Shown: positions 26 to 48,355, counted from the stretch's first letter. The stretch: 50,754 nucleotides of DNA from Chiloscyllium plagiosum (GCF_004010195.1 NC_057740.1:6995671-7046424), one strand, 5' to 3'. Program-made: numbers and translations. Notes: a model not told the origin generated them from the letters alone.

Positions 26-53
26 CTGATGAAGGGCTTTTGCCCGAAACGTC
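26..53 (+). ncRNA. minimal hammerhead ribozyme motif (Penelope terminus, family A)
   Basis: CTGATGA-a-gggc(tttt)gccc-GAAAC-GTC; catalytic core intact. Confidence 0.75.
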
Positions 54-169
54 GATTTCGAAGCTCCTTGGATGCTGCCTGAACTGCTGTGCTCTTCCAG
101 CACCACTAATCCAGAATCTGGTTTCCAGAATCTGGTTTCCAGCATCTGCAGTCATTGTTTTTACCTCTA

Positions 170-1372
170 TGCCTTACCACCCACTTTACCTTCAACAACA
201 AAACCTACAGATAAACCAATGGAACACCCATGGGATCTCCGATAGCAGGGCTCTTAGCAGAGGCAGTAATGCAGGGACTCGAACAAACAGCTCTGCCAAC
301 CATCCAACCCAAACTTTGGGTCCACTACATGGATGACACCTTTGTCATCACTAAACAAAACAAATTAGAAGAAACCTTCAAGACCATCAATAATACCCTT
401 ACTGCATGAAATTCACTAAAGAGGAGGAAACCAACAACAAACTGCCATTCCTAGATGTTGCAGTAGAGCGAACAGTCAATGGGGAACTTCAAACCAGCGC
501 CTACATGAAAACAACACATACTGACCAAATACTGTATTACACCCTAACACCCACAAACGAAGCTGCATTAGAACATTATTTCAATGAGCCACCACACACT
601 GCAGCACAGAGGAACTAAGCAGAGCAGAGGAAAATCACCTATACAGTGTATTCAAAAAGAACGGGTACCCAATGAACAAGTCCACTGATTTCTCAGCAAT
701 AAACCCAAACAAGCAGATAAAATGCGTCCAGAAGCCTTAGCCACTCTCCCTTACATAAAGACATCTCAGAAATGACTGCTAGACCCCTCAGACCTCTTTG
801 GTAGCCCACATACCCACCAACACACTAAAACAGTAGCTAATGAACTTGAAAGACCCTACAGACAACAAGCAAAACTAATGTCATTTACAAAATACCGTAC
901 AAGAACTGTAACAAACACTACATTGGACAAACAGGCAGAAAACTAGTCACCAGGATACATGAACATCAACTAGCCACAAAAAGACATGAGCCACTTTCAC
1001 TAGCATCCTTACATACAGATGAGAAAGGACACCACTTCGATTGGAACAACACATCCATCTGAGGACAAGCCAAACAGAGACACGTGTGAGAATCCCTAGA
1101 AGCATGGAATTCCAACTGGAACTCTGTCAACAAACACATTGACTTGGATCCCATTTACCATCCCCTGAGAAAAAGAACAGGAAATGATGTCACCACTTGA
1201 AATGACATCACCACAGGAAATGACACCACCAACCCAAGGAAACCTAAACACATAAATAGAAAGTGGGCCATGCCACTAGTCCTTCATCTGGAGGCTCATT
1301 GATGATGTTCCTAGTATGATGATGAAACGTCTAAAAACGAACCTTGCAGCTCAGCGAGCAAACCTACATCCA
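170..1372 (+). mobile_element. Penelope-like retroelement, 5'-truncated and decayed (RT + GIY-YIG)
   Basis: Frameshifted remnants GTPMGSP, YMDDTF, LPFLDV and NVIYKIP..HYIGQTGR. The 3' terminus has a degenerate hammerhead at about 1299-1331. Confidence 0.88.
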
Positions 1373-1482
1373 GGTCATGCTGTGGGATTCTATGACTCTA
1401 TGACTCTACGATAACTATGGATGAAGCCATTTGAATTGCTTTCAGTCAAGTCTTCATTCCTCTTTGCGTCAGAATGAATCTA

Positions 1483-1683
1483 CAGGTATTCCCTGCTTTT
1501 CGAAAGTTCACTTTATGCCACTTTGCCTTTACAAAAGACCTACATTAGCACCTGTTTTCACTAACCAAAAGAAATCCAAAGAGGATTTTCGCTTTTTCAC
1601 CGATTGCTTCTTCACTTTATGCCATTTCGGCTTATGAAAGGTTCCTCAGGAATGTTCTACTTTTGGATAGCAGGAGAAACATG
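1483..1683. mobile_element. Tigger/pogo-like MITE
   Basis: Starts TA|CAGGTATTCCCTGCTTTTCGAAAGT and ends with an imperfect inverted copy (ACTTTTGGATAGCAGGAGAAACATG); about 200 bp, non-coding. Confidence 0.55.
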
Positions 1684-3500
1684 TTTATTTGAATCAATCG
1701 GTAGAATTCTCCCAGTCCTTGTATGACATGGGAGATCAGAAATGCAAGATCAGAAAAATGAGATTCTCAACTTTATGAAAAACAGTTCTAGTTTGTAACC
1801 AATTTTGAACAATGAGATGAGAATCCTGCCAATGAAAAACAAGAGGCCTGTTTCCATGATCAAACATCTCAATGTTGCTTATTCTCATGTTATTTATCTG
1901 CAGTTTGCTATTCTCCCAGCAGTGGGGAGAAACTAGGTGGCACCAATTCCCCACATGACCCTCAAAGGTGGCACCTGGAGGCTCCCACTCAACGCATGCT
2001 CCTCTGGACCACCATCTTGGCCAGTATTCCCAATATCTCAGCGTTCACTCCCTGGGTAATGACTAACGCGAATCCCGGGTCCATGGAGTTTGGCATCAGA
2101 CATGCATCAGCCTGACTACATCGTCATGGCACGTCTCTGACTCACTTACAACACACCTCTCCACTTCAGTGCTGCAGTATGGAGCACACTGACAGCTTTC
2201 ATTGTAATGCTGCTGCCAGTATACTTTGTACTCAGGGTCAGGCACCCACATTATGCATTGGATCAGGGTCCATCACAGAGCACTTTGCTCACTATGTAAC
2301 ACTTACTCACCTTACACTGCCTTCGATGCTCGCAGTATCTATGCTCTGCCTCGCCTTGGCTTTTGGCACTTTGCTGCCTCATTCAGAACTTACACACAGT
2401 ACACTCTGTGTTGCTTTGCCTTTTAGCACAGCCACGGGGCTAGGCGGCTTGTTGGGGTTGTCAGCAGTGACTGGTTAAAGAGGGAGGTGGACATGTTGCT
2501 GTATGTCACTGGTCAACATCTATCTCACACCTAACACAGCAAACACTGTGTGTTCTTCAGTTAATTGTCCACATCTCGAAGTTTAAGGGGAGTAGACCTC
2601 AATCAGGACAAGGGATTGTGTTGCCATTCAGGGAGTTTCACCACAGTCAGACAAGGGCACCGTCTGATCTCAGTCCGGGACCCAGGACACATATTCAATT
2701 GGTCGCTTAGGAGAGTCAGTTCTGCGGTTCTATATCACTACAGTCTGGGGAGAGGGCACAGTCTGTCCTGTAGATCCAATGCAACCAGTCAGGGCACTAT
2801 CTGTGTGCCGATCGGGCAGCTGCACACAGAACAGTCAAGGGTCTGGTCTCTTATGAGTCAAGGCTGTTGTTCCAGCTTGGGCAGGGGGCACGGGCCACGG
2901 TCAGTCCTGGTGGGTGTCTCTTCAATGAAAGTCAAGGTGATTTACCAGGGCCCAGTGCTGTGATTGGGAGTGAATTGTTGGGGATTCCAGAGGGTATTGT
3001 CATTCTGACAGTGGGGAGCACAAAATATAAGAATGGGAGATTACAGCACATTGGAAGACATGGGCTATTCTGGGATGGGGAGGAAACGGTGTCGGACAGG
3101 GACAGCAAGACAAAATGAACATGTAGGATGACCAAGGACAATTCCATCAAACAGGTTCTTGCACAGTACAGGCTGAAGACAGCTATAAGCACAGAGTCCC
3201 GGTGTGAAACACAAGCAGTCACCACTGTGTGGGATACAAATGCTTGCCGCAAGTAATCTTGAGCATGTCATTGTGAGTATAAACTGATCACAGTCATCCC
3301 TGTGAAGCAGCCACTGGAGCTTGTTATTTATTCATTCGTGGGATGAGGGCACCATTGCCTAAGCTGGCATTGATTGCACACCCCTATTTTATAATTTAGT
3401 TGACTACAAACTTTGGAGCCCTCATACCTATCTTTGTGTAACAAGTTCCTTTCCCTCCCCAGATATAACTGTGAGGCACCATCCAAAGTCTTGGCTAGCT

Positions 3501-5080
3501 CTGGATGTAGGTTTGCTCGCTGATTGGAAGGTTCATTTTCAGATGTTTCGTCACCATACTAGGTAATATCTTCAGAGCACCTCCGGACGAAACACTGCTG
3601 ATGTTTCCTCCTTCCTATTTGCATGTTTGGGTTTCTTTGGGTTATTGATGTCATTTACTGTGGTGATGTCATTTCCTATTGTGATGTCATTTCCTGTTCT
3701 TTTTCACGGGGTGTGGTAAATGAGGACCAAGTCAATGTGTTTGTTGATGGAGTTCCAGTTAGAATGCCATGCTTCTAGGAATTCTTGTGCATGTTTCAGT
3801 TTGGCTTATCGTAGGATAGATGTGTTGTCCCAGTCGAAGTAGTGTCCTTCCTTATCTGTACATAAGGATACTAGTGAGAAAGGTTCATGTTGTTTTGTGG
3901 CTAGTTGACGTTCATGTATCTTGGTGGCTAGTTTTCTGTCTATTTGTCCAATGTCGTGTTTGTTACAGTCTTGCACGGTATTTTGTAAATGTCATTAGTT
4001 TTGCTTGTTGACTGTATAGGGTCTTCCAAGTTCATTAGCTGCTTTTTTAGTGTATTGGTGGGTTTGTGGGCTACCATGATGCCAAGGGGTCTGAGTAGTC
4101 TGGCAGTCATTTCCGACATGTCTTTGATGTAGGGGAGAGTGCCTAGGGTTTCTGGACGTGTTTTGTCTTCTTGTCTGGGTTTGTTGCTGAGAAATCAGCG
4201 GACTGTGTTCATTGGGTACCCATTCTTTTTGAATACACTGTATAGGTGATTTTCCTCTGCTCTTTGTAGTCCCTCTGTGCTGCAGTGTATGGTGGCTCGT
4301 TGAAATAATATTCTGATGCAGCTTTGTTTGTGGATGTTGGGATGATTGCTTCTGTAGTTCAATACTTGGTCTGATTTCTCAGCAACAAACCCAAACAAGC
4401 AGACAAATGCATCCAGAGACCCTAGCCACTCTCCCCTACATCAAAGACATCTCGGAAATGACTGCCAGACTACTCAGACACTTTGGCATCATGGTAGCCC
4501 ACAAACCCACCAACACACTAAAACAGCAGCTAATAAACTTGAAAGACCAGATACAGACAACAAGCAAAACTAATGTAATTTACAAAATACCTTGCAAGAA
4601 CTGTAACAAACATTACATTGGACAAACAGGCAGAAAACTAGCCACCAGGATACATGAACATCAACTAGCCACAAAACGACATGACCCTCTCTCACTTACA
4701 TACAGATAAGGAAGGACAGCACTTCGACTAGAACAACACATCCATCCTAGGACAAGCCAAACAGAGACACACACAAGAATTCCTAGAAGCATGGCATTCC
4801 CACCGGAACTCCATCAGCAAACACATTAACTTGGACCGCATTTACCACCCCCTGAGAAAAAGAACAGGAAATGACATCACCATAGCAAATGACATCACCA
4901 ACCCAAAGAAACCCAAACATATAAATAGAAAACAGGAAACATCAGCAGTGCTTCGTCCGGAGGCTCACTAAAGATGTTACCTAGTATGGTGATGAAACAT
5001 CTGAAAATGAACCTTCCAGCTTAGCGAGCAAATCTACATCCAGAACATCAAAGTGATCTACATATCTTCTCAAAACCTGC
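3501..5080. mobile_element. Penelope-like element with inverted arms (minus arm about 3501-4372, plus arm about 4373-5080)
   Basis: Same family as 170-1372. GIY-YIG ORF at 4407-4709 (NVIYKIPCKNCNKHYIGQTGRKLATRIHEH). The arms are reverse complements. Flanks ttggctagct/ttggccagct look like a target-site duplication (TSD). Confidence 0.9.
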
Positions 5081-9017: not shown

Positions 9018-9045
9018 CTGAAGAAGGGCTCATGCCCGAAACGTC
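9018..9045 (+). ncRNA. minimal hammerhead ribozyme motif (family A) in a 91-bp insertion
   Basis: CTGAAGA-a-gggc(tcat)gccc-GAAAC-GTC. Insertion 9017-9107 is flanked by the direct repeat tctcctcaca (9007-9016, 9108-9117). Confidence 0.72.
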
Positions 9046-9208: not shown

Positions 9209-9214
9209 TTTATT
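9209..9214 (-). terminator. possible polyadenylation signal of the IgL C exon
   Basis: First AATAAA I see on the minus strand after the C-exon stop, about 500 nt downstream. Confidence 0.4.
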
Positions 9215-9314: not shown

Positions 9315-9448
9315 AGGTAAAAACAATGACTGCAGATGCTGGAAACCCGATTCTGGATCAGTGGTGCTGGAAGAGCACAGCAATTCAGGCAGCATCTGAG
9401 GAGCAGTAAAATCGACGTTTTGGGCAAAGGCCCTTCATCAGGAATAAA
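9315..9448 (-). mobile_element. short Penelope-terminus insertion in the putative IgL C 3' UTR
   Basis: Family A terminus with mutated hammerhead (GAAA>AAAA). Direct repeat acctacttgaact at 9302-9314 and 9449-9461. Confidence 0.8.
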
Positions 9449-10154: not shown

Positions 10155-11482
10155 AAGAGTGTGTTGCTGGAAAAGCATAGCAGGTCGGGCAGCATCCAAG
10201 GAGCAGAAGAATCGACATTTCGGGCACGAGCCCTTCAACAGGAATGAGGTTTGTGAACCAAGGGGGTGGAGATTAAATGGGAGGGAGGTGGGGGTAGGAA
10301 GCTGAGAGTGCGAAGGGTAGATGGAAGTAGGGATAATGGTAGGAGGGTGGAGTGGATAGGTGGGAAGGAAGATGGACAGGTAGGACAGGTCATGAGGGCA
10401 GTGCCGAGGTGGAAGGTTGGGAATGGGATACGGTGAGGGTTGGGGAAATGAGGAAACTGGTGATGCCATGGGTTGAAGGGTCCCAAGGCGGAAGATGAGA
10501 TGTCGGGTGGTTAGGGTGTGGCGATGGAGGAGGCCCAGGACCTGCATGTCCTTGACGGAGTGGGAGGGGGAGTTGAAGTGTTCGGCCACGAGGTGGTGGG
10601 ATTGGTTGGTGCGGGTGTCCCGAAGATGTTCTCTGAAGCACTCTACAACGAGGCGTCCTGTCTCCCCAATGTAGAGGAGACCACATCGGGAGCAACAGAT
10701 CTCTTGTCAGATGCCCCCCACCAACCCACCCTCCCATCCCAGCACCTTCCCCTGCCACTGCAGGCATTGCAAACTTGCACCCACACCTCACCCCTCATTT
10801 CCATCCAAGGCCCCAAAGGAACCTTCCACATCCAGAGTTTATCTGCACTTCCACACGTCATTTACTGCATCCGTTGCTCCCGAAGCAGTCTCCTCTACAT
10901 TGGGGAGACAAGACACCTACTCGTTTCAGACAACATCTCTGGGACACCCGCACCAACCAACCACACCATCCCATGGCCGAACACTTCAACTCCCCCTCCC
11001 ACTCTGCCAAGGACATGCAAGTTCTGGGCCTCCTCCATCACCACACCCTAACTACCTGACATCTGGAGGAAGAATGCTTCATCTTCCATATTGGGACCCT
11101 CCAACCACACATCATCAATGTGGAGTTTCCTCATTTCCCCTCCCCTCACATCCCAATTCCAACCTTCCAACTCAGCACCGCCCTCATGGCTGTCCTACCT
11201 GTCCATCTTCTTTCCCACCTATCCGCTCCACTCTCCTCCTTGACCTATTACCTTTACCCCCACTTCCATCTACCCTTCGCACTCTCAGCTCCCTTCCCCC
11301 TGGCCCCACACCCCTCCCATTTATCTCTCCACCCCCTTGGATCACAAGCCTCATTCCTGATGAAGGGCTGTTGCCCGAAACGTCAATTTTCCTGCTCCTC
11401 AGATGCTGCCTGACCTGCTGTGCTTTTCCAGCACCACCCTCGTGACGCTGATCTTTAGCATCTGCAGTCCTCACTCTTTCCT
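10155..11482. mobile_element. Penelope-like element (family A), inverted arms, just 5' of the IgL C exon
   Basis: GIY-YIG remnant VIYCIRCSRSSLLYIGET and AEHFNSPSH on both strands. The inversion point is at about 10700. Hammerhead motifs lie at both outer ends. Confidence 0.9.
11357..11384 (+). ncRNA. minimal hammerhead ribozyme motif (family A)
   Basis: CTGATGA-a-gggc(tgtt)gccc-GAAAC-GTC. Confidence 0.72.
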
Positions 11483-14270: not shown

Positions 14271-16009
14271 CTAATTCTGGACTCACCCACAGGTGAAATA
14301 TCCTTTCCACGTCCACCTTGTTGGGACCATTCAGGATCTTATACACTTCAAATCAATTCACTAAAGTAGGTCTCAACCTAGTAAATCTCCACTGAATAGT
14401 TTCGATCAAAATTGTATTCTTCCTTAAATAAGGAGGAAAACAGCACACAGTATTCAAGATGTAGTCTCAGCAATGCCTGAAATGTAACATCCTTACTTTT
14501 CTGTTCAATTTCTTGTCAGATAGGATAGTATCCCATTCAATTTCTTCATCACTTGCTGTGCCTCCACACTAGGTTTATGAGACTCATGCACTATGACACC
14601 TTTCTTTGCACTTGCAATAGTTCTCTATTTAAATTATATTCTGCTTTTCCTATGCCAGTGTTTTGCCCACTCACTTGAGCAGTCCATATTGGCCTGCATC
14701 CCTGAAATGACCTCTTCACAACATATTTTCCGATCTAGCTTTGTGTCATCACTATTTTAACCTTCAATCCTTTCACCTAAGTCGTTGATATAAATTGTTT
14801 AAGCTGAGTGCCCAGGGAAAGGTTGCTGACAAAACATTGGTAAAATCAGCAGTAATGAGGCAATGGATAATGTTTGTGAAAATTTACCAGAAAGGCTGAC
14901 TACATCTCCAATTGCTTAGATCAGCTGGTCCAGGTGCTTTTCCAAACAGGTTGTTAAAGGAAATGGAACTGAAGATAGTAGAAGGGTTTGCCATAATCTT
15001 CTAACTTGTGTTGACAGCGGGAATGTACAAGTGATTGAAGAGAAGTGACTGATATCGTTATCCAAAAACATGTCAAACGGCCTAGCCACCTATTCAGTTG
15101 TATCAAACTAATAAAAAATATCATGAATGGAATGTGACTGGATCAACCACCTGGCACTGACCTCTGCAGTAAAAAGAACTAACTCAGTTCTGTTGAACCC
15201 TCCTCCAATTACCTTGTTCCTAACATGAGGGCTAATGCCAAAATTGGGAAAACTAGCTTACAGACTAGTCAAGCCATAGCCTGATATAATCCATTTGTGG
15301 AATCATAACTTACAATGTCCCAGTCAGTACCATCATCACCCCGGATATGTTCTGTACCCACAGCAAGACAGAACTAGTAGATGTGGTGACTAGTGGTATG
15401 GACTCAGGAGGGAGATGCTCATCGCATCAGGTGAAGCAGGGCAAGGAAGGTTCTTCCTGATTCCCATGTGCCACCATCACCTCAGCTGATGAATCATTAT
15501 TCCTCAACGTTGAACATGGAGAAGGTACTGTGGGTGGTGAAGTCCAATCCTCAGATTAAGGAAACCCTCCATTGTATTGTGTGACACTACCACCATGCTA
15601 AATGGGATAGACTTCAAACAGGTCTAGCAACTCAAGACTCTACATTCATGAAGCACTGTGGGCCATCAACAACAGCAGAATTGTACTTCAACACAATATG
15701 CAAATACATGCCATATTCTAGATTGGAGTGGTGCTGGAATCTGGTCTAGAATCTAATCTAGAATCTGGTTTCCAGCATCTGCAGTCATTGTTTTTACCAA
15801 ATACATGCTATGATATTTCCCACACTTAACCATTACCATTAAGCCATGATGTGGAGGTGCTGGTATGGGGCTGGGGTGGACAAAGTTAAAAATCACTCAA
15901 CACCAGGTTATAGTCCCACAGGTTTATTTGGAAGCACTAGCTTTCGGAGTGCCGCTCCTTCAACCAAGAAGGAAATGCTAGTCCATTCAGGTGGAATTCT
16001 AAATTACAG

Positions 16010-17797: not shown

Positions 17798-17825
17798 CTG
17801 ATGAAGGGCTTATGCCCGAAACGTC
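17798..17825 (+). ncRNA. minimal hammerhead ribozyme motif (family A)
   Basis: CTGATGA-a-gggc(ttat)gccc-GAAAC-GTC. Confidence 0.72.
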
Positions 17826-19704: not shown

Positions 19705-19732
19705 GACGTTTCAGGCATAAGCCCTTCTTCAG
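19705..19732 (-). ncRNA. minimal hammerhead ribozyme motif (family A), sense within rpl37 intron 3
   Basis: Minus strand CTGAAGA-a-gggc(ttat)gcct-GAAAC-GTC, with a G-U pair closing stem II. Confidence 0.65.
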
Positions 19733-23100: not shown

Positions 23101-23828
23101 GCATGCCTTAGATTCATTTTTCTCCCAACTATCCAGCCGAACACCCGAATCAAATTATAAAAAGGTGCTGTAATGTGTTCTGATTCAAGGCCTTAATATA
23201 TTCTAAATATTTATCGATCTCAAATCAAAACTTCTTGAAGAAGGAGAAAGTGAGGAATGCAGATGCTGGAGACCAGAGTTGAGAAGTGTGGTGCTGGAAA
23301 AACACAGCAGGCCAGGCAGCATCCGAGGAGCAGGAGAATCGACATTTCAGGCAAAAGCCCTTCTTCAAGTTCTTGAAGAACCCCAGTCCAAGCTCATTTG
23401 ATGAGGAAAGCGGAAATTCAGTGATTTGGATTCAGACTAGATTACAGAGGTTACAGACTCGCTCCTGATCTGGCATACTACTACCTCCCAGATTCACCAC
23501 CCAATGCTGCCCCTCTCCGACATACAGCCATAAACACTGCTCTTTCTGAGATACAACCCACTCCTTCACTCCAACACTCCTTCCTCTAGATAAACCAACC
23601 CTATCCCACTCCACAATATGAGCCTCTTACAGATGGCCTTCCCAGCCCAAACTGTACCTCTGTCAGGAGATAAAAAAAAGAACACTCTAGAAGCCTATTC
23701 CAATTTTCTACTTTTCATCTTATGGAAGAATTGATGTTTGATCATTTCACACAGAAACAGTGATCATGTGCATTAGCACTGCTGCCATGATCATTACAAA
23801 CAGCCTCTCAGCATCACTACACCCCTTA

Positions 23829-27992: not shown

Positions 27993-28178
<186 letters not shown>

Positions 28179-30224
28179 CTAAGAAAGAATAAGAATAAAA
28201 CCAACAAATCATTGTATGAAAGAGGGATTAAAAACAATCAATTTAACCTTAGCTCAGAGTTCAGCATAATGAGAGCCAAACAATAACAAGTGGCCATTAA
28301 CACCTCACGCTCTGACGAAATTACAAAACAGCAGCAAGGCTGCAGACTCCAGGCAAGTTCAGGCAGGGAATTACATGTCCAGAATGGACAGACCATTGAA
28401 TCCAACTGGACTACACAAAAGTTAATGCTCCAAGGCTACTTCATCTAACCCTATTGATGCATCCTTCTACTCCATCTTCCCTCATACACTACTGTCGGTT
28501 CTATCTTCAACTACTGCCATTTATTGCACTGGTGCATTTACATGTTGACATGAACATCCTCACAAACTATAATAAAGCCAAGAACTGTGAATACTGGAGA
28601 TCTGAAACAGAAAGAGAAATTGCTAGAGAATCTCAGCACATCTGACATCTCTCCACAGATGCTGCCAGATGTGAGTTTCTCTAGCAATTTGTTTTATTTC
28701 CTCACAAACTATGCCTAATTAAAATGAAAACAGAAAATGCTGGAGATGTTTAGCAATTCAGGAAACTTCTGTGAAGAGCAAAGCAGAGTAAATATTGGGA
28801 TAACTTTATTTTGATGCTACACATAAATCATCTCCTGCATCGTTTAGAGCCTGGCAAAGGTGATCAGATGCTTCACCTTGGGCACTGTAAATGTGACTGA
28901 CTAATTTAAGGTTTTCAACTGTAATATCAATTAATTTTAATGGTGTTGTGCAATACGATGCACTATTTGAGGAGAAAGCAAGGAGTTGAAAAGTGTTGGA
29001 AAAGCACAGCTGTTCAGGCTGCATCCGAGGAGCAGGAGAATCATCGTTTCGGCCATTAGCCCTTCACCAAGAATGGGCACTATTCCTACACTAACCAGGC
29101 ACTATTTGAGAACAAGCAAACTTGGGAACTGACTGGTAAGTCAATTTATTTGCTCTCAGACGAAATATTTGTACATCATTTATTATGCACGGTCAGAAGT
29201 GTTCAGGGACAAATATGACGTGAAAAAGAACAAAAAAACAAAGGAAGTGCCATCTTTTCAGTGCAGTCAGTACATCTTTGAAAATTATAGAGAAATCAGA
29301 TTAGGAGCTGAAAGGTTAAAATCAAACTTCTCCCATTCAAAATGCTGTAAATCTACAATACTGAATAGTGTCACAGAAGTCACATCCCTAATAGGGACTT
29401 CCTCAAATCCATCATAAAATGACCAAAAATATTGATTGAAAGAAAAGGCTCTTAGCCAAACAATAAAAGAATGTGAAACATTAACATTCTTCAAACTGCT
29501 CAGAATCTGTTGCACAGAAATAATCAGGATCGGGAGTGTTACAAAAACAAAATACTGTTAATGCTGAAAATCTGAAATAAAAATACCATGCTTGCAAAAC
29601 TCTACTTGTCAGGTAGTATGTGGAAGGAAAAGCAGTTGCTGTTTCAGATCTTAGGAGCTTCCTTCATATCTGGGTCAGAATTCACTGTGGAGAAGAATAA
29701 GTTACTCCCTCACGTCTGAGGAAAGCTCACAGATCTGGTTTTCTCTACAGTGGTGCTGTATGGCCAAGCTGAGTCTTTGCTGCACTTTGTTTTCGCTTGG
29801 TCTTGCACTGTAGCTATAATGCATTACCTGGCGAAGACATGAGGATTCATTGTGAGATGGAGTGACTGGAGAATCAGAAACGGGAGGGATAGGCAGGGGC
29901 TATATCAATTCAAACCGTGGCCAGGAAACGGAGCCTTGCTTAAGAAGATACATGACCAAGTAAAAGCGTCACTTTATACAAAGCTCTGCCTGCTGTCAAA
30001 TAGAAGCACTAGGCCCAATGTTAAGCCCCCGATTCGAGTGTGAGCACCGCTGCAGCGGCTAAACGCCTGCAAATTCCTCGGCCATTCCCCATAATATCTG
30101 TGCGGCACAATAGTTAAACATATATCGAACTAACTCCTCATGATGGGCTGATGGTAATGGCCCGGCTGGGAATGGATGGACGTGGATTTCTCCCAGGCCT
30201 TCACCGCCTTTAACCCTCACTCAC

Positions 30225-30227: not shown

Positions 30228-30242
30228 TTTCACTGCGCGCCT

Positions 30243-30291: not shown

Positions 30292-31819
30292 ACAATTCCT
30301 TCCCTAACCTGACCTTCAGCCAAGTCCTAGTTTCAAAGCTGTCCCCGCACAAACCGAAGGTGAAAAATAGTTCCTATACATTTCTGATGAAGAATCATTG
30401 AGATTGGAAATATTTGATTGTTTTTTTTCCATCGATGCTGCCTGATACCCAGTATTTTTTGTTTTCAGTACAGATTCAGTAATTTGCTTCCATTTATTTA
30501 TCTTTGATGCCAGTGTTCATTGCCTGTTCATCAAAATGGCATGGGAAGTAGAATTAGTAATTTCAAAACTGTTAAATCACTAATTTTTCCCAGATGCGAT
30601 GACATTTGAAAATCAGTTTCTCCACGGACAGATGACAACTGAATCCACATTGTTATTTGTTTTTATTTCAGACTCCCAGATTTTTCGTACATTCCTTAAA
30701 TGCATTTGGTGTAGCAGGCGCAATGGGCCAAATGGCCGCCTTTTGCACCATAACAATTCTGTGACCGTGTTCTTGAATTAAAAAGAGGCCTCAGGCCCAT
30801 TTTTTTCTGTGTCAACTCCTGAAAGAGCTGTCCATTATTATTTAATTCCTGTGCTCTTCCTTTGTTCTGCTTCCACTCAAGACTTTTGGAGATCCTTTTT
30901 GAAAATTAGTGTTGCATCTGTTTCCACTGCCCTTTCCATTCGTGCTTTCAGTCAACAACTGATTTCGAAAAGAGTAATTGTCATTCCCACATCCATTATT
31001 TTGCCAAACTACTTTAAATATGTATCCTATGGTCCCAATACTTGGTTTGGGTATAGTCTTTATCATCTAGAAGTTCATTCACATTTTTATCCATGTTGGT
31101 CTTCCTCTAACTGGTGCAAAGTTCAGTAAAACTGAATTGAATAAAATAATCATTGCTTGGGATCTTCCATGAAAGGACTCATCAGTCTCTATCTCAGTCA
31201 GCTTCCCTCAACCATCTCCTGTGGGTCCCAGAACCCCATTTGTTCTTGATTTGTTTCAACTCAATAATGCGTTCTGGATGGAATTCCTCTGTTAAAGATC
31301 GGCTCTGGTCCAGGAATGAATAACATTGCAGTTCCTGCTGCTAGCTTATGTGTGGGGATGCTGTTGTAAGGGATGTTGGTGTGGGTGCTAGATGTAGATT
31401 GGGACACCCCACATAATCGGTGCTGGTGTGGGAACCTCGGAGTCCGAGTGAAGCTGCCTTTCTACATTTGACTTTGTTCCAATTTTAGTAAGCTACCTTG
31501 CAACAGTCAGTGCTGTGATGACTGTCTTTGCACCATTCCCTTCGATCAGTTCAATGTGGGGTAACTTCATTGATTTTGTTTCATGTTTCCATCAATGCTC
31601 TTTATTCAATGGACCTTCTTTAGTACTTTTCTCCTGAATTCAATTTCTCTGATTCCATTTCAGGTGATCACCTCCCTACTAATATTATGCATAAGCTCTA
31701 AGACTCCAGCATCTATCATGTTCCTCACCTAAAGCCATTTCTTTGTCCTGTTGACACTACTGTCCATGCCAGTGCTTCAGAAATTTTCTCAGCTCTGTCC
31801 TTACACCCATCTCTTTGTT

Positions 31820-33679: not shown

Positions 33680-35670
33680 GAGATGTATGTGAGATATGGA
33701 CCTCAGTAAGGCATTCGACAAGGTTTTTCATGGTAGACTGGTTAGCAAGATTAAATCACATGGAATACAGGAAGAACTAGCCATTTGGATACAGAACTGG
33801 CTTGAAGATAGAGAACAGAAGATGGTGGTGTAGGGTTGCTTTTCAGACTTGAGGCCTGTCACAAGGTCCACTGCTTTTCATCATTTATATAAATGATTTG
33901 GATGTGGACATAGGAGGTATAGTTAGTAAATATGCAGATGACACCAAACTTGGTGGTGTAGTGGACAGCAAAGAAGGTTATCTCAGAGTACAACGGAATC
34001 TTGGGAAAGGCAAATCAGGGCAGGAATTATACACTTAATGGTAAGGGTCGAGAGTGTGGTGCTGGAAAAGCACGGCCGGTCAGGCAACATCCAAGGAGCA
34101 GGAGAATCAACATTTCAGGCACAAGCCCTTCATCAGGAATGAGGCTTGTGGGCCAGGGGGCTGAGAGTAAGTAGGAGGGGTGGGGCTGGGGGGAGGGGAG
34201 CTGAGAATGAGATAGGTAGATGAAGGTGGGGGAGAATGTGATAGGTCAGAGAGGAGGGTAGAGTGAATAGATGGGAAAGACAATGGACAGGTCAAGAGGG
34301 CAGTGCCGAGTTTGAGGCTTAGGACTGGGATAATGTGGGGGGAGGGGAACTGAATACCACCCGATGCCTGGAGGAAGAATGCTTTATCTTCCACCTTGGG
34401 ATCGTGCAACCACATGGGATTCATTTGGATTTGGCCAGTCTCCTCAGTTCCCCTCCCCCGAAATTATTCCAGTCCCAAGTCATAAACTCGGCACCACCCT
34501 CTTGACCTGTCCATTGTGTTTCCCATCTATCAGCTCCATCCTCCCATTCGATCCATCACCTTCTCCCCCACCTTCATCTATACATCGCATTCTCAGCTCC
34601 CTTGCCCCCAGCCCCACCCGCTCCCAAATATCTCTCACCCCCCTGGCCAACAAGCCTCATTCCTGATGAAGGGCTTATGCCCAAAACATCGATTCTCCTG
34701 CTCCTCAGATGCTGCCTGACTGGCTTTGCTTTTCCAGCTCCACCCTCTTGACTCTGATCTCCAGCATCTGCAGTCCTCACTTTCTCCTACTTGATGGTGA
34801 GGCCCTGGGTACTGTTGCTGAACAGAGAGATCTTGGATGCAGGTTCAGAGTTCGTTGAAAGTGGAGTGTCAGTTAGATAGGAGAGTGAATAAGGCATTTG
34901 GAATGCTTTCCTTTATTGGTCAGAGCATTGAATGTAAGAGTTGGGAGATCAAGTTGTGGCTGTACAGGACATTGGTTAGGCCACTTTTGGAATATTGTGT
35001 GCAATTCTGGTCTCCGTCCTATAGGAAGGATGTTGTGAAACTTGTAAGGGTTCATAAAAGATTGAAAAGGATGTTACCAGGGTTGGAGGGTGTGAGCTAA
35101 AGGGAGAGGCTGAATAGGCTGGGGATGTTTTCCATGGAGCGTTGGGGGCTGAAGGGTGATCTTTCAGAGGTTTATAAAATCATCAGGAGCATAAATTAAA
35201 AATCACACAACAGCACAACCACCTGATGAAGTGGCAGCGCTCCAAAAGCTAGTGTTTCCAATTAAACCTGTTGCAATTTAACCTGGTATTGTGCGATTTT
35301 TAACTTTGTACATGCCAGTCCAAATCACGAGGAGCATGGATAGGATAAATAGACAAAGTCTTTTCCCTGGGTTGGGGAGTCCAGACCGAGAGAGCATAGG
35401 TTTAGGGTGAGACAGGAAAGATTTGACAGGACCTAAGGGGTAACCTTGTCATGCAAAGGGTAGTGCGTATGTAGAATGAGCTGCCAGAGGAAGTGGTGGA
35501 GGCTGATACAATTACAGCATTTAAAAGGCATTTGGATGGGTACCTAAGTAGGAAGGATTTAGAGTGATATGGGCCAAATGTTGGCAAATGGCTCTAGATT
35601 AATTTAGGATATCTGGACGAGTTGGACTGAAGTTTGTTTCCGTGCTGTATATCTGTATGACTGACTCTAT
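33680..35670 (+). mobile_element. CR1 LINE with nested Penelope-terminus insertions
   Basis: MDLSKAFDKV, KYADDTK and LEYCVQFWSPSYRKD; interrupted at about 34047-34788 and about 35195-35322. Confidence 0.9.
34047..34788. mobile_element. fold-back Penelope (family A) insertion
   Basis: Inverted arms with decayed hammerheads at about 34108-34136 (-) and about 34663-34690 (+). Near-direct repeat acttaatggtaagg / acttgatggtgagg. Confidence 0.85.
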
Positions 35671-38237: not shown

Positions 38238-38986
38238 TGATGTGGAGATGCCGGTGTTGGACTGGAGTGGACAAAATTAAACATCACACAACATCAGGTT
38301 ATAGTCCAACAAGTGTATTTGGAAGTACTAGCTTTCAGAGTGCTGCTCCTTCATCGGGTAGCTGTGGTGCAGGATCATAAGACACAGAATTTATAGCAAA
38401 AGATTATAGTGCCATGCAACTAAAACAATATATTGCACAAACCTAGATTACTGTTAAGTCTTTCATCTTTTAGAATGGGTTGCAGGTTTCAGTTCACTAA
38501 TATGTAAATCCCAGAACTTCTTTCAAGTCACATTCCCAAGACAACTTAAGGTTTTATTTTTAAAAAAGTTGACATCTCAGCTCAGGCAATGCATTAAAGA
38601 TGTGAGATTAGAGTTTGTCTGTATGCCAAGCTTGAGTCAAACTGGTTCTATTTTCAAAGTAGTCATTTATAAATGTTACAAGGATTGATTGCCTGCAGAT
38701 TGTGTGCTTTTTGAGCAAAGTAGAATGTTTCTGCAAAAACAATTCTGCAAATGCAAATTCACCTCATAGACTTATATATGGGTGTGTGTGCATGAGAGAA
38801 AGAAGGAGTGAGAGTGGGTGCGTGTGAGAGTGTGTGTTTGTGTGTGTGAGTGTGACGGAGTATAAGCCTGTGAGAGGGTGTGTGCATGGATGTGAGTGCG
38901 GGGTGTGTATGTGTGTGTGTATATGAGAGAGAGCATGTGTATGAGAGAGGGTTTGCATGAGTGTGAGAGTATGTAAGAGTGTGTGT

Positions 38987-39017
<31 letters not shown>

Positions 39018-39510
39018 CGAGTGTATAGAGTGTTGGAGTCACCTGTAGTGTGACATGAACCCAAAGTCCCAGTTGAGGCCATCCTCATGGGTACCTAACT
39101 TGGCTATCAGCCTCTGCGTTGTTGTGTATCCCGAAGTCCACCTTGGAGGATGGGCACGTGAAAATCCGAAACCGAATGTTCCTGACCGCTGAAGTGTCCC
39201 CCAACTGGGAGGGAACATCTCTGTCTGGCGATTGTTGCACAGTGTCCAAATCATCCGTTGTTGTAACATCTGCTTGGTCTCATCAATGTACCATATATAT
39301 TAATGAACCAAAAACTGCAAACCATTCTAAAAGATGAAAGACTTAACAGCAATCTAGGTTTGTTCAATTAATCATTTCAGTTGCATGACACTGTAATCTT
39401 TTGCTATAAATTCTGTATCTTATGATCCTGCTCCACAGCTACCTGATGAAGGAGCAGCGCTCTGAAAATAAACTTGTTGGACTATAACCTGGTGTTGTGC
39501 AAATTTTAAC
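38238..39510. mobile_element. fold-back Penelope-like insertion (family B) within a decayed CR1 (about 37800-39990)
   Basis: Inverted arms; hammerhead-like ctgatgaaggagcagcgctctgaaa; TSD ttacttgagaaa at 38226-38237 and 39511-39522; endonuclease C-terminal remnant QRLIAKLGTHEDGLN. Confidence 0.8.
38780..39025 (+). repeat. compound (GT)n/(GA)n microsatellite
   Basis: Direct inspection; lies inside the family B element. Confidence 0.9.
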
Positions 39511-43830: not shown

Positions 43831-46800
43831 TGACCTCATTACAATCACTGCATCCCTCCCTCCCGTGCCTTTTGCTTGGAAGACCTCCTGGGGTATTTTA
43901 GCATCAGGTCAGTTTCCTCTGACTCGGCTTCCAACATGGGCAGCATGTAACACACGGGAGCTCACTTCTTGTGCCAGGAGAGCCTCTGTAGAATTTAATT
44001 CTCTTCTTCTGGCAGCAAAGGCATTGAGATGGCTACTTCCATCATGTCCATCTCTGAGAAGACTCAACACTGTTTGATGGAGAGGGTGAACCCGCAGGTT
44101 CTGGCAGCATTTCTGACAGTTCTGAGGGGCAGGGCACGTTTTGGTCCTCCACCGTTTGAGAATTCATGGCCCTCAAATGGCCCTATGCTTATTCAGGACC
44201 ATCACACCCACCTGAACTTTATACGTCACCGGTCCTGACCTCACAACGACCATGCCTCTTACTCATGCAGGGCTGTTTCCGTGCTTTTTACACCAAACTT
44301 CACCCGCTGTATCAAACTATCTCTTTTGCTTGGCAGAGTCTTGTGTCTGGCATTGATGTTCCTGATGCTGTTTCACCCTCCACTCCAGATCCAGGAAGAT
44401 CAGAGTTAACCTGGTGTGGAATCTTCTACTCATTAGCAACTTTGTCGGTCCTATTCCTGTGATTGCATGAGGGGTGGTCCTTTAATTAAACATAAACTTT
44501 GACAGCTGGTATCCAGCAAGACTGGAGAATATTTTCACAATCCAGCCTTTAAAGTTTGGATTGTTTTTTCTGCCAAGCTGTTGGATGATGGGTGTTATGC
44601 AGCTATTCTAATATGTAGAACCCCATTTGACTTTAAGAAATACCTAAATATCCTGCTGGTAAATGATGGCCATTATCTTTGACCAGCACTTCCAGGACAA
44701 ATGCGCACAGCTTTTCTATCATCAGCTCAGTGTTTGGTGAATGGACCCTATGTGCATCCAACCACTTTGATTGGGCATCTACAATGACTAAGATCATTGA
44801 ACCCATGAAAGGATCTGCATAGTCTGTTTACCCAGCCATTCGTATATATGTCGGGAGTTCCAGGCAGTAACCTTTGTCCTGGTTGTCATTCAGGGAACTA
44901 TCCCCCAATGTGGCCATGTTAGCATCCAGATATAATTTCTTGCCAACATCTTTATTTTAGAGACCCCTGGACGGCCCTGGTGGAGTTCAGCCTGTGTTTA
45001 ATAGTAAACTTTGCTTAGGACAATCACTCTCGCTCCCCATAATAATATACCATCCTCCACCATGAGCTGGTTTCTCCGGGTCCGAAAAGGTTTCAATTAT
45101 AGTTGTGATGACAATTTGGTTTCCCCAGTCAATATCAGTTATTTTAGTTTGTAAATGTCTGGATCTTTCTGTGTTCTGGGTGGCACAGTGGCTCAGTGGT
45201 TAGCACTGCTGCCTCACAGCGCCAGTGACCCAGTTTCAATTCCAGGATCAGGCGACTGTCTGTGTGGAGTTTGCACATTCTCCCTGAGTCTGTGTGGGTT
45301 TCCTCCAGGGGCTCTGGTTTCCTCTCAGAATCCAAAGATGTGCAGGCTAGATGAATTGGCCAGGTTAAATTTCCCATAGGTTCAGGAATGTGTAGGCTAG
45401 GTGCAAAAGTCAGGGGTAAATGTAGAGTAACAGGGTGTTGGAATGGGTCTGGTTGGGTTACTCTTCGGAGGGTCGGTGTGGGCTTGTTGGGCCAATGGCC
45501 TGTTTCCACACTGTAGGGATTCTATGATTCAAAGTCTGATATTGTTAGCCATGACTGCCAGTGTGTACATAAAATTTAACATCATTACAGACTCTTCCAT
45601 TGCAATGCGACCACTGCTGCCCATTCCACAAACGATATTGGTTTGATGTTTCCTTCACTTTCCAGCCTTCTGATTTCCGTCTCTACTTTTGCCCACAAGG
45701 CAAATGACAGTGGGCAGGCCTTACAGAATCATGGAATGGTTATCTGGTCAACATGCAGGTGAGAAGTCACACGGCACCAGGTTATAGTCCACCAGGTTTA
45801 TTTGAAATCACAAGCTTTTGCAGCGTAGCCTCTTCATCAGTGTAGTCACTTTTACTACAATCATTGGTAACTGAACCAGCTGCTTTTCTTAAGACACCAG
45901 AATTGAAGATGTACTCTTAATCTGTAAAGGTTCCCTGGTATAGGTTCTCAGCCTAGCTGAGGTTTTGTGCAAGAGTAAAGGAAGTCAAGGCACATTTTAT
46001 TCAAAACTTGTTCTGCAAACAGTGATATGGCCGTGCCAGTACCAACTCCATTAGAATTGGATAACCATTTAACCAGACATTTACTTTGTTTGGTTTTGAT
46101 TTTGATGTTGCTCAGCATTTTAACTGTTCCAAACCAGATGTAGATGGACTTTCCACGGTATGAACTCTCCTTAATACAAGCCTAAGAGTTATCTTACTTA
46201 ATTTATGTCAAGTAGAACTCTTTTCTGTCTCAAGTATGCATACTGGCAACAACTAAAATGCCTTGTCGACCAAGATTCTGAGGGAAATTTTAACCATTTG
46301 GCCTAACCTTGGGGTTTTTTGAGGTTTCGCTGTGGACATACATTGTTATGTCTTGGGCAAGGATATGCAATTGCCTGCACTCAAGTGGTTTCCTCCAAGC
46401 TCAGCTGAACTGGTGAGAGTGTCCACTTCCATCAGAATACCCTGCAACTTGTATGCTCCACTTGCAGCATTTTCCAATAATAAAGGCAGTTGTAGCGCTT
46501 GTTTGAAGTCCAGTTGGGCTTCAACCAGCATGCGTTTGTTTACAGTCAGACCATTAATCCCACGTGCCATATGGTCTCTCAGCATCTTATTAAAGGTTAA
46601 ACCAAGTTCAGTCTTCTGTCAGTCACCCTGATCTAGTAAAAAAATTCCATACAGATTCCCTGGTTCTTGAATTGCTGAGTAAAAGCAATAGCATCTCAAA
46701 ATTAGAAGAGGAATGGGGTTGCAATATTCCTTAACTATGTCAGTCAATTCTTGAAATGTTTTAGTATCTGATGCCTTAGGAAAAAGTAGGCTCCTGGAAC

Positions 46801-47020
46801 AGAAAGGCTGCAGCTCTTCGGGAAAATTACCTGTTGTTTTTCACCTGCCACAATATCATTTGCCTGGAAAAAATAATGCATTCTTTCGACATACTGGGCC
46901 CAGGCCTCAATAGCAGAGTTGGACTAGTCACGCTTCTCAAAAAAAGGCAAAAGAAATGCTTACTCCAACACTGTTATGAGTGAGTTTCTTCAGGATCATG
47001 CTTTACTCTTGTCGCCAGTT
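43831..47020 (-). mobile_element. Gypsy-type LTR retrotransposon internal region, decayed
   Basis: PBS-like TGGCGAC at about 47011-47017; gag remnants WAQYVERM.YFFQANDI and MLRDHMARGIN; integrase remnant DPFMGSMILVIVDAQSKWLD; polypurine tract next to the LTR start at about 43853-43864. Confidence 0.8.
45178..45530 (+). mobile_element. HE1-like tRNA-derived V-SINE
   Basis: gggtggcacagtggctcagtggttagcactgctgcctcacagc (A box), B-box-like tttcaattcc, V-domain, and a CR1-shared 3' tail. Confidence 0.9.
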
Positions 47021-47087
47021 CAGTCCTTCGAGTACAGGGGTTTGGGAAGTCATGTTGAGGTTGTACAGGACATTGGTGAGTCCTCTA

Positions 47088-48260
47088 GGAGAAAGTGAAG
47101 ACTGTAGATGCTGGAGATCAGAGTTGAGTGTGTGGTACTGGAAAAACACAGCCAGTCAGGCAGCATCCGAGGAGCAGGGGAATCAATGTTTCGGGCATAA
47201 GGATTCAGGAATGAGGCTTGTAGGTCAGGGCTGAGAGATAAATGGGAGGGGGGTGGGATTGGGGGGAGGTAGCTGGAAAAGCGATAGGTGGATAAAGGTG
47301 AGGGAAAAGGTGATAGGTCAGAAGGGACAGTGATGGACAGGTCCGGAGGTCAGTGCCGAGTTGGAGGCTTGGGACTGGGATAATGTGGGGAGAGGGGAAA
47401 TGAGGAAGCTGTTGAAATCCACATTTATTCTGTGTGATTGCATGGTTCCAAGACAGAATATGAGGCGTTCCTTCTCCAGGTATTAAGTGGTAACGTTTGG
47501 GGGTAGAGGAGGCCCAGGACCTGCATGTCCTTGACGGAGTTGGGGGTGGGAGTTGAAGTGTTCAGCCACGGAGCGGTGAAGTTGGTGGGTACGGGTGTCC
47601 AGAGATGTTCTTTGAAATGATCTGCATGAAGGTGTCCTGTCTCCCCGATGTAGAGGAGACCACACCGGGTGCAACAGATGCAGTAGATGACATTGGAAGA
47701 GGTGCACGTGAATTTCTGATGGATGTGGAAGGATCCCTTGGGGCTTTGGACAGAGGTGGTGGTGGTGGTGGGGGGGGGCACAGGCTTTGCACTTCCTGTG
47801 GTAGCAAGGAAAGTTACAAGCAGTGGGGTGTGGGCTGGTGGGGGACGTGGACCTGACAAGGGAGTCACAGAGGGAATGGTCTTTTGGAATGCTGAGAGGG
47901 GTGGGGAGGGAAATATATCTCTGGTGGTGGGGTCTGTTTGGAGGTGGATTATGCATTATATGCGGAGGTTGGTGGGGTGGTAGGTGAGGACCATGGGTGT
48001 GTTCTGTACTTGTTGCATTGGGAGGGGCGGGGTTTAAGGGCAGCGGTGCATGGGAAGTGGAGGAGATGCACTGGAGGGCATCGTCAACCACATGGTAATG
48101 GAAGTTGCGATCATGGAAGAAGGACACTATCTGGGACTTTCTGAGGTGGTATTGGTCATCCTGGGAACAGATGTGCTGATACAGTCATTGATGGAGCGGA
48201 GGAATAGGTGGGGGGTGGTGTGGACGTAACTGCAGAAGATGGACGGTTCCACATATCCGA
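47088..48260 (-). mobile_element. Penelope-like element (family A), truncated
   Basis: GIY-YIG remnant FTCTSSNVIYCICCTRCGLLYIGETG and VAEHFNS. Confidence 0.9.
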
Positions 48261-48327
48261 AACGAGCTGAAGATGTGTTGCTGGAAAAGCCCAGCAGGTC
48301 AGGCAGCATCCAAGGAACAGGAGAATC

Positions 48328-48355
48328 GACGTTTCGGGCATAAGCCCTTCTTCAG
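48328..48355 (-). ncRNA. minimal hammerhead ribozyme motif (family A) in a 98-bp insertion
   Basis: Minus strand CTGAAGA-a-gggc(ttat)gccc-GAAAC-GTC. The insertion is flanked by the 14-bp direct repeat ttccacatatccga (48247-48260, 48359-48372). Confidence 0.72.

What the first reader, a model, noticed from the sequence alone, without database searches (positions are those of the whole stretch)
26..48355. Dense population of minimal hammerhead ribozymes in three or more Penelope-terminus families
Seen: about 20 copies of CUGANGA-[stem II]-GAAA-[self-complementary 4-mer]-H. Family A has stem gggc/gccc and GAAACGUC, with intact cores at 26, 9018, 11357, 17798, 19705(-) and 48328(-), and decayed ones near 9414, 10213, 23341, 29045, 34108 and 34663. 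Family B has stem ggagc/gctcc and GAAAGCUA (about 15937, 35223, 38328, 39443, 48677; all mutated). Family C has consensus stem gttacc/ggtgac and GAAACGUC (about 1299, 3542, 4968). Stem II differs completely between families while the core is kept, and the family A loop varies freely (tttt, tcat, tgtt, ttat). Known: Penelope-like elements carry minimal type I hammerheads that lack a stable stem III and are proposed to cleave as dimers via the palindrome. Inference: at this density the genome holds very many copies, so transcripts could pair in trans.
Basis: partly seen in the sequence, partly recalled or inferred. Interest (0 to 1): 0.7.

Follow-up and report, generated by a model that had tools for sequence, protein, structure and literature searches.

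The report
Shark Penelope retroelement minimal hammerheads
The repeated motifs are real copies of the small hammerhead-ribozyme sequence that Penelope-type jumping genes are already known to carry at their ends, here from three or more families and in an estimated half a million mostly decayed copies in what is likely a shark genome, and they are most likely passive by-products of copying rather than RNAs that pair up and cut host transcripts.

Summary
Observation confirmed: all 20 listed motifs are present, plus 4 more; 6 pass a strict descriptor (shuffles: 0.01). They are minimal type I hammerheads in the terminal repeats of Penelope-like elements: A and B Neptune-type, C Penelope/Poseidon-type with its start codon inside the ribozyme. 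Exact patterns match 87,506 (A), 4,218 (B) and 973 (C) places in the genome; sampling suggests 0.5-0.75 million copies. Stems I and II covary between lineages, but inserted copies decay neutrally. Trans-pairing is not supported: 40 of 46 intact copies lack a same-strand partner, the active dimer is predicted unfavourable, families cannot cross-pair, and RNA reads run through the cut site with no pile of ends. Side results: copy 5' ends pile up 2-10 nt before the motif; junctions at the predicted cut are modestly enriched (2.3 versus 0.6-1.4 per 100 copies); family B has a used poly(A) signal 10 nt after the cut. The class is published (2014), and this scan noted the same motifs, and each side result, before on other DNA. 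New members of a known kind.

The parts
26..53 (+). Family A minimal hammerhead, core intact, stem I 2 bp
185..1269 (+). Family C (Penelope/Poseidon-type) ORF remnant: RT pieces, thumb, GIY-YIG; broken
   Evidence: tblastn
1299..1331 (+). Family C hammerhead, decayed (C3U, stem II changes)
3542..3575 (-). Family C hammerhead, palindrome hit by CpG decay; left arm of a head-to-head inverted insertion
3611..4932 (.). Family C ORF remnants in both orientations (3611-4369 minus, 4413-4932 plus with GIY-YIG)
4968..5001 (+). Family C hammerhead, decayed (G5A); right arm of the inverted insertion
9018..9045 (+). Family A hammerhead, core intact, stem I 1 bp; short copy starting about 10 nt upstream
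9414..9441 (-). Family A hammerhead, G12A; short copy downstream of the Ig constant exon, same strand
10214..10241 (-). Family A hammerhead, A6U and CpG decay; left arm of inverted insertion 10157-11441
10344..11231 (.). Family A (Neptune-type) linker Zn finger and GIY-YIG remnants in both orientations
11357..11384 (+). Family A hammerhead, core intact, stem I lost (G1.1A); right arm
15938..15963 (-). Family B hammerhead, 5'-truncated inside the CUGA box
17798..17825 (+). Family A hammerhead, core intact; a truncated inverted copy abuts it at 17751-17795
19705..19732 (-). Family A hammerhead, core intact but C11.1U; partner arm at 20428-20486 lacks the motif
23341..23368 (-). Family A hammerhead, decayed
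24820..24846 (-). Related family (E; stem II GGGU/ACCC), decayed; Neptune-type ORF remnant upstream at 25022-26029 minus
29043..29070 (-). Family A hammerhead, decayed
30384..30414 (+). Further decayed hammerhead-like copy with an A-like tail (single copy seen)
34109..34136 (-). Family A hammerhead, CpG-decayed; left arm of inverted insertion 34044-34755
34663..34690 (+). Family A hammerhead, G12A; right arm
35223..35251 (+). Family B hammerhead, G12A; ATTAAA at 35261-35266
38329..38357 (-). Family B hammerhead, U4C; left arm of inverted insertion
38831..39293 (-). Family B (second Neptune-type) GIY-YIG C-terminal remnant and microsatellite-rich 3' UTR
39443..39472 (+). Family B hammerhead with the cleavage site deleted; AATAAA at 39467-39472; right arm
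45812..45840 (-).
47131..48181 (-). Family A element 3' part: thumb, linker Zn finger, GIY-YIG, then a hammerhead with a deletion at 47208
48328..48355 (-). Family A hammerhead, core intact, stem I 2 bp; short copy starting about 4 nt upstream
48622..48748 (.). Family B head-to-head stub pair; minus arm truncated inside the CUGA box

Best explanation
The motifs are minimal type I hammerhead sequences in the terminal repeats of at least three Penelope-like retroelement families, kept intact in the lineages that multiply and likely carried passively into every new copy, where they decay like neutral DNA. Shown: the motif lies on the sense strand, 3' of RT and GIY-YIG remnants and 40-100 nt from the element end; stems covary between lineages; inserted copies lose core bases at ordinary rates. 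Inferred: reverse transcription starts at one of two sites 40-100 nt downstream of the motif (the two 3' ends, as in the anole element PAc), so even the shortest copy includes it, which explains the density; many short copies run to an RNA start 2-10 nt upstream of the motif; the great majority of template RNAs were uncut (or resealed) at the site. Predicted, untested: cutting at GUC (A, C) or CUA/CUU (B) needs a second motif of the same family in a tandem element transcript and help from the element's protein, and affects a minority of RNAs.
For: Sense motif downstream of PLE ORF remnants in window and loci; HHR-ORF-HHR partial tandem with the ORF starting at an ATG formed by A9, the unpaired U and G10.1 (L201), as reported for PAc (PMC11167929). 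Two 3' ends 35-40 nt apart in A, B and C. Head-to-head inverted pairs dominate. Covariation: family C stem I pair 3 is CG 14, UA 10, GC 7 of 36 and stem II pair 3 is paired in 36 of 36; 91.9% of 234 cells paired against 86.4% shuffled and 24-39% when slid; family A pair 10.2-11.2 is A-U in 7 of 10 copies that have A; 15.2-16.2 is CG or GC in 146 of 179 core-intact copies, and 26 more are CpG-decay forms. Neutral decay: G12A in 14 of 91 A and 13 of 43 B copies, like other CpG sites; B non-CpG core 35 of 473 letters changed against 119 of 1634 in the tail. 5' ends at -2 to -10 in 21 of 93 A copies against 5 in the next 20 nt. Junctions at the cut 2.3 per 100 copies. No pile of RNA ends at the cut. 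Published: monomers inactive and dimers weak (PMC4209133); PAc motif cuts only with protein and cutting is not needed for insertion in vitro.
Against: No cleavage assay. No intact full-length element was recovered for any family (longest open PLE frames are 300-400 aa), and clades rest on motifs, not on an RT tree. Junctions at the predicted cut are 1.6-4 times more frequent than at four control positions, so some templates may have been cut; 55 of the first 100 can equally be read as GA microhomology joins and 15 as small indels (counted by hand). Stem I of the most abundant A subfamilies is only 2 bp plus a mismatch, shorter than the 4-5 bp reported for Schistosoma motifs. The RNA run is one poly(A) single-cell library of a species not shown to be the same, and such libraries miss 5'-OH ends. 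Covarying copies are related, so counts reflect a few lineage events.
Confidence: 0.85

Rival explanations
1. One reading: copies are so dense that host transcripts carrying them meet, pair through the palindrome and cut each other in trans.
For: An estimated 1.4-2.1 x 10^5 intact cores (42 in 716,714 sampled bases; 87,506 exact A). RNA reads cover A and B motifs, on both strands. Different A subfamilies are compatible partners on paper. Dimer cleavage is published for this class (PMC4209133; review PMC6765202).
Against: Active dimer predicted 2.4-15.5 kcal/mol above two monomers for 40-46 nt constructs and 23-75 with natural flanks (the model ignores tertiary contacts and, with flanks, leaves them unpaired). 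Only 2,219 of 12,955,460 records lay on the A stretch, which I estimate as sub-nanomolar. Cross-family stem I cannot form. No end pile-up at the cut. Cores are not protected from mutation.
Confidence: 0.07
2. The fold is kept mainly as a 5'-end signal of the element RNA (protein binding, start-site or translation control), and cutting is incidental. Compatible with most of the best explanation.
For: 5' ends of copies pile up just before the motif; in C the start codon is part of the motif; in B a used poly(A) signal follows it; cleavage is dispensable for PAc insertion in vitro; Naiad elements thrive without the motif (Craig et al.).
Against: All catalytic positions, the palindrome and H17 are kept across families whose stems and flanks differ, which is what selection for chemistry predicts; junction excess at the cut.
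Confidence: 0.3
3. The short copies are a non-autonomous retrozyme family that replicates through its own small circular RNA.
For: Short same-strand tandems with two intact motifs exist: L079 (B, 355 nt), L076 (C, 409 nt), L115 (A, 334 nt). A 2026 preprint reports such tandems in one cartilaginous fish.
Against: Copies have no fixed unit length; upstream extents are scattered and run into PLE ORF sequence; tandems are a minority (6 of 46 intact copies have a same-strand intact neighbour); none in the window is a tandem unit.
Confidence: 0.05

Closest known systems
Minimal hammerheads (min-HHR) of metazoan Penelope-like elements (Cervera and De la Pena 2014, PMC4209133; parts 1-2 of 4 read: abstract, results, discussion; supplements not seen). 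Lunse et al., RNA Biol 14:1499, seen only as a title and through a review.
   Same: Type I topology, no loop III, palindromic 15.2-16.2, unpaired base after A9, G10.1-C11.1, place in pLTRs, several families per genome, mostly single motifs or opposite-strand pairs from truncated elements; reported in fish Xena, Poseidon and Neptune.
   Different: Number: 87,506 exact matches for family A alone against about 4,000 (coelacanth) and 9,000 (Xenopus) motifs there (different descriptors). Stems are shorter in A (II 4 bp, I 2-4 bp) than in the Schistosoma families (7-8 and 4-5 bp). No cartilaginous fish is named in the parts read.
Poseidon element PAc of Anolis carolinensis (Frangieh et al. 2024, PMC11167929; main text read)
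   Same: Family C: ORF start at the base of stem II, cut 28 nt after the ATG (26 in PAc), 3' end about 103-108 nt into the ORF (RT start 111-118 in PAc), two 3' ends that define a tail, no RNA-seq ends at the cut.
   Different: No intact C ORF recovered and no assay here. Families A and B carry A, not U, at the unpaired position and have no conserved ATG there.
Neptune clade of EN+ PLEs (Craig et al. 2021, bioRxiv 10.1101/2021.04.23.441226, passages; Arkhipova et al. 2013, PMC3846280, passages)
   Same: Families A and B: RT, then a C-x4-CxxC linker, then C-terminal GIY-YIG with CCHH-type residues; inverted 5'-truncated copy; one-sided 30-40 bp tail.
   Different: Placement by motifs only; Nematis also has a linker. 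Family B has a long microsatellite-rich 3' UTR and a used poly(A) signal 10 nt after the cut, which I did not find described (no 'polyadenyl' in PMC2377424 or PMC3846280).
Non-LTR retrozymes (Li et al. 2026 preprint 10.64898/2026.07.22.740005; parts 1-2 of 5 and passages)
   Same: Type I hammerheads derived from PLE pLTRs; found in one cartilaginous fish.
   Different: Defined as tandem non-coding repeats with a motif in each unit; the window's copies are dispersed ends and inverted pairs of coding elements.

Membership tests
PLE minimal hammerhead (min-HHR) | Core CUGANGA ... GAAA ... UH in type I order | tested here: met
   6 strict copies in the window against 0.01 in shuffles; 42 in 716,714 sampled bases against 0 in 10 shuffles of 200 kb
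PLE minimal hammerhead (min-HHR) | One unpaired base between A9 and 10.1, and G10.1-C11.1 | tested here: met
   57 of 59 descriptor hits in the sample chose the register with one extra base; the 2 others are not family copies; consensus G10.1-C11.1 in all families
PLE minimal hammerhead (min-HHR) | Palindromic 15.1-16.1, no loop III | tested here: met
   CG 102 and GC 44 of 179, 26 CpG-decay forms, 7 other
PLE minimal hammerhead (min-HHR) | Covarying stems I and II among families | tested here: met
   few independent lineage events
PLE minimal hammerhead (min-HHR) | Helix sizes (II 7-8 bp, I 4-5 bp in Schistosoma; II 6 and I 2 in D. virilis) | tested here: inconclusive
   II is 4 (A), 5 (B), 6-7 (C); I is 2-4. 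The paper gives sizes per organism, not as a class rule
PLE minimal hammerhead (min-HHR) | Lies in the pLTR of a PLE | tested here: met
   sense, 3' of RT/GIY-YIG remnants; both ends of a partial tandem in L201
PLE minimal hammerhead (min-HHR) | Self-cleavage, as a dimer or with protein | not testable with these tools
   needs an assay; folding energies only
EN+ Penelope-like element | Single ORF with RT and C-terminal GIY-YIG | tested here: met
   remnants in that order for A (L069, L074), B (L172/L189), C (L201); relatives of 840-950 aa carry RVT_1 and GIY-YIG; no intact copy found
EN+ Penelope-like element | Inverted 5'-truncated copy and one-sided 30-40 nt tail | tested here: met
   3' ends at 55-65/95-100 (A), 50-55/90-95 (B), 40-45/75-80 (C) nt after the cut
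Neptune clade (A, B) | CX2-5CxxC linker between RT and EN | tested here: met
   C-x4-CxxC in natural frames of A (L042, L053) and B (L172, L176)
Neptune clade (A, B) | RT phylogeny with Neptune references | not tested
   no named reference PLE proteins were at hand
Penelope/Poseidon clade (C) | No Zn-finger linker; ORF begins inside the pLTR hammerhead | tested here: met
   L102 frame; L201 reads from the ATG into an N-terminal domain; U at the unpaired position in 34 of 35 C copies
Penelope/Poseidon clade (C) | RT phylogeny with Poseidon references | not tested
   nearest proteins are unnamed flatworm PLE proteins at 46-47%
Non-LTR retrozyme | Tandem non-coding units, each with an intact motif | tested here: not met
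   no such tandem among the window's copies; 6 of 46 intact copies have a same-strand intact neighbour
Rfam hammerhead families | Match to a curated model | tested here: not met
   no hammerhead family among 12 matches at E up to 10

The most novel reading that the evidence does not exclude
The motif does cut in vivo when the element's protein binds, and the genome keeps a record of it (a 1.6-4-fold excess of copies that start at the cut). In family B the cut lies between the message and a working poly(A) signal, so the many B ends that serve as transcript 3' ends would be latent off-switches that lose their poly(A) tail whenever the element is expressed.
Probability: 0.08. Interest if true: 0.7.

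Novelty: new member of a known kind. Interest (0 to 1): 0.27.

Why it matters
Why Penelope-like elements keep a barely active ribozyme is still open (Craig et al.; PMC11167929). A genome with hundreds of thousands of copies turns insertion junctions into a statistical record of where the RNA starts, where copying starts and how often the RNA was cut, which small genomes cannot give. It also warns that hammerhead counts in shark genomes are retroelement debris, not evidence of host regulation. The class itself is not new.

Tried and rejected
Rfam: no hammerhead hit. Search for an intact full-length element: best open frames were chimeric or inflated by N gaps (the '1220 aa' frame in L099 and the 673 aa frame in L069). 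Candidate same-strand pairs 2.4-3.8 kb apart (L083, L184, L185) held no ORF between the motifs. Local test for a spike of 5' ends at the cut: 2 of 291 A copies, no power; replaced by genome-wide patterns. My first reading that GA microhomology explains the whole cut-site count was revised after two GA-start controls gave lower rates. The look-up of sequencing runs: no RNA holder listed; run X20 gave 0 reads and is no test. Chance motif, tRNA- or SINE-derived origin: rejected because the copies continue into PLE ORF sequence. Lunse et al. 2017 is not held. Paper searches for a description of these shark families found none; subscription journals, Repbase and Dfam were not searchable, and supplements of PMC4209133 and of the preprints were not seen and may list shark motifs. 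No structure or complex prediction was run.
Full report
Setting. The window is G000:C31:6995671-7046424 of a 3.556-Gb assembly. It holds an immunoglobulin C1-set exon at 9712-10065 minus and LINE RT remnants; the nearest protein to a family A frame is labelled Chiloscyllium punctatum, 69% identical. The host is therefore most likely a shark; I did not identify the assembly.

Observation. All 20 listed motifs are there, and 4 more. A strict descriptor finds 6 in the window against a mean of 0.01 in 100 shuffles. Written in hammerhead numbering the three families read CUGANGA, one unpaired base, stem II opening with G10.1-C11.1, GAA, a four-base palindrome that starts at A15.1 (ACGU in A and C, AGCU in B), H17, then the 3' strand of stem I. 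There is no loop III, so helix III can form only between two motifs. The six best copies have 0-2 contiguous stem I pairs. Rfam finds no hammerhead.

Copy number. Exact patterns match 87,506 (A), 4,218 (B) and 973 (C) places, with 0 for the reversed patterns; the B and C patterns cover only part of their families. In 74 stretches of 10 kb chosen at round coordinates (716,714 non-N bases) profile searches found 97 A, 38 B and 15 C copies that cover the core, and 0 in reversed sequence; 42 pass the strict descriptor. Scaling by bases, or by the 26 exact A matches in the sample, gives 0.5-0.75 million recognisable and 1.4-2.1 x 10^5 intact motifs (my arithmetic). Cervera and De la Pena counted about 4,000 in coelacanth and 9,000 in Xenopus with another descriptor. 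Clustering shows at least three further related families with the ACGU palindrome.

Carrier elements. Each family lies on the sense strand downstream of Penelope-like ORF remnants. A: RT, a C-x4-CxxC linker and GIY-YIG. B: a different element of the same plan with a long 3' UTR; its remnant is in the window at 38831-39293 minus. C: no linker. By the criteria in Craig et al. and PMC3846280 (passages) A and B are Neptune-type and C Penelope/Poseidon-type; no RT tree was built. In L201 a C element reads motif, ORF (with an internal deletion and breaks), motif, and the frame starts at an ATG made of A9, the unpaired U and G10.1 and runs into an N-terminal domain, the arrangement reported for the anole element PAc. 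The 3' ends of all three families fall at two places 35-40 nt apart (135 A, 62 B, 43 C copies), the known PLE tail, which PAc work ties to two RT start sites. Adjacent same-family copies within 3.5 kb are head-to-head inverted in 38 of 72 pairs, same-strand in 25 (23 of them family A, often of different subfamilies) and convergent in 9. No intact full-length copy was recovered.

Selection acts on the multiplying lineages, not on the copies. Among 179 distinct copies with an intact core in all loci held (a set enriched by my pattern searches), 15.2-16.2 is CG or GC in 146 and a CpG-decay form in 26; N7, the loop and H17 vary. In C, stem I pair 3 takes three Watson-Crick forms in 31 of 36 copies and stem II pair 3 is paired in 36 of 36; on 26 aligned copies (the distinct ones with an 18-nt stem-loop) 91.9% of cells pair, against 86.4% shuffled and 24-39% slid, but only one pair changes on both sides. 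In A, pair 10.2-11.2 is A-U in 7 of the 10 copies with A, of 91. Related copies inflate these counts; they stand for a handful of lineage events. Against this, copies picked by their tail alone show G12A in 14 of 91 (A) and 13 of 43 (B), as at other CpG sites, and B's non-CpG core differs at 35 of 473 letters against 119 of 1634 in the tail (copies under 60% identity over the motif or 75% over the tail were dropped; A's 5' box is inflated by truncated copies).

The trans-pairing inference. 40 of 46 intact copies have no same-strand intact partner of the same palindrome within 3.5 kb, so cis dimers are the exception. Nearest-neighbour energies put the active dimer 2.4-15.5 kcal/mol above two free monomers for 40-46 nt pieces; the model lacks tertiary terms, so this shows weakness, not impossibility. 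Stem I is also intermolecular in the dimer, and A-C, A-B and B-C pairs form 0-1 stem I pairs, so partners must be of one family. In one poly(A) single-cell run (X19, about 2% read; species not shown to be the same) 2,219 of 12,955,460 records lay on an A stretch, on both strands, about 1,200 deep across the cut, with no place where many molecules begin or end; the same holds for a stretch with B and A copies. Such libraries are poor at 5'-OH ends, so this is weak evidence. Published assays agree in direction: monomer inactive, dimer weak; PAc cuts only with its protein, cutting is not needed for insertion, and no RNA-seq ends were seen at the site.

What the junctions record. Prompted by earlier notes of this scan, I mapped 5' ends: 21 of 93 A, 8 of 51 B and 4 of 37 C core-bearing copies start within 11 nt upstream of C3, against 5, 1 and 2 in the next 20 nt (ends from local alignment, a few bases uncertain). 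This fits short copies made from an internal RT start up to an RNA start just before the motif; no cap data were at hand. For A, patterns requiring four mismatches upstream of a given base gave 510 junctions at the predicted cut, 312 at +3, 83 at -3, 160 at -8 and 159 at +18. With 62,272 anchor copies, survival from the first 100 listed there (41 and 65, counted by hand) and from small local counts, the rates are 2.3, 1.1, 0.7, 1.4 and 0.6 per 100 copies. The excess is 1.6-4-fold, but of the first 100 cut-site junctions 55 join to the element's own sequence at a GA microhomology and 15 are small indels, and the denominators are rough. So over 95% of these copies came from RNA that was uncut or resealed there, and a minority may record cutting.

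Family B poly(A) signal. AATAAA or ATTAAA starts at the tenth base after the cut in 39 of 43 copies. In X19, 339 and 618 reads end in poly(A) at L107:1919 and 1922, 12-15 nt after the hexamer and before a GU-rich stretch, where the genome is not A-rich; depth at the cut is about 2,100 and the reads are mostly sense. These RNAs are polyadenylated and uncut. The site lies upstream of both element ends, so full ends must be copied from read-through RNA (inference). Whether the reads come from elements or host genes is unknown. Two earlier notes report the same; I saw it before that look-up.

Verdict. Real, and a new member of a published class. The scan's index holds 1,401 notes with these words in at least 38 genomes. 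Six paper searches found no description of these shark families, though a 2026 preprint includes one cartilaginous fish and repeat databases were not searchable. The extras (scale, start-site pile-up, slight cut-site excess, poly(A) signal) make an open question more testable but do not change the kind. Interest 0.27.

Noticed in passing
window 9712-10065 (-), 9360-9441 (-), 9209-9214 (-): Immunoglobulin light-chain-like constant exon (C1-set, E 9e-18). No A(A/T)TAAA lies between its stop and the sense family A copy at 9441; the first is at 9209-9214, so that copy (G12A, likely inactive) would sit in the predicted 3' UTR.
   Followed up: partly
L107:1902-1922; window 35261, 39467, 15923, 45797, 48662: Family B carries a poly(A) signal 10 nt after the predicted cut, used in RNA reads.
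   Followed up: partly
G000-wide: Recurrent junctions that look like deletions of the whole ribozyme body (16 of the first 100) or of stem II alone (about a quarter of the first 100) between short GA/GAA repeats, perhaps RT jumps across the folded motif.
   Followed up: no
A element 3' end, e.g. L196:3810 onward: The long A tail ends in a pyrimidine tract that resembles a 3' splice site; PLEs are known to hold introns near the pLTR.
   Followed up: no
L079:4259-4703, L076:4536-5035, L115:2231-2600: Short same-strand tandems (355, 409, 334 nt) with two intact motifs: the natural candidates for cis-dimer assays.
   Followed up: partly
window 30384-30414 (+), 24820-24846 (-); L043, L130, L147, L191: At least three further hammerhead families with the ACGU palindrome and other stems (GGGU/ACCC, GGGUC/GACCC, GAGUC/GACUC), sharing an A-like tail.
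   Followed up: partly
window 40792-41856 (+), 26884-27582 (-), 13203-14352 (-), 50168-50754 (-), 42266-42796 (+): CR1-like LINE RT remnants (RVT_1 hit at 40792-41856) and an L1/Tx1-like C-terminal fragment; family labels recalled, not tested.
   Followed up: no
L003:132-1148 (-), L035:2571-7515 (+): Open frames that look like retrovirus-like or LTR-retroelement gag, pol and env fragments (labels from recalled motifs); observed only.
   Followed up: no
window about 19805-19955: A 151-N assembly gap inside an inverted family A insertion; many loci show gaps at such insertions, so long and tandem copies are likely under-assembled.
   Followed up: no
P0069: A bamboo-shark protein annotated as EYA3-like isoform matches 16% of the family C frame at 89% identity, suggesting an exonised or mis-annotated C fragment.
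   Followed up: no
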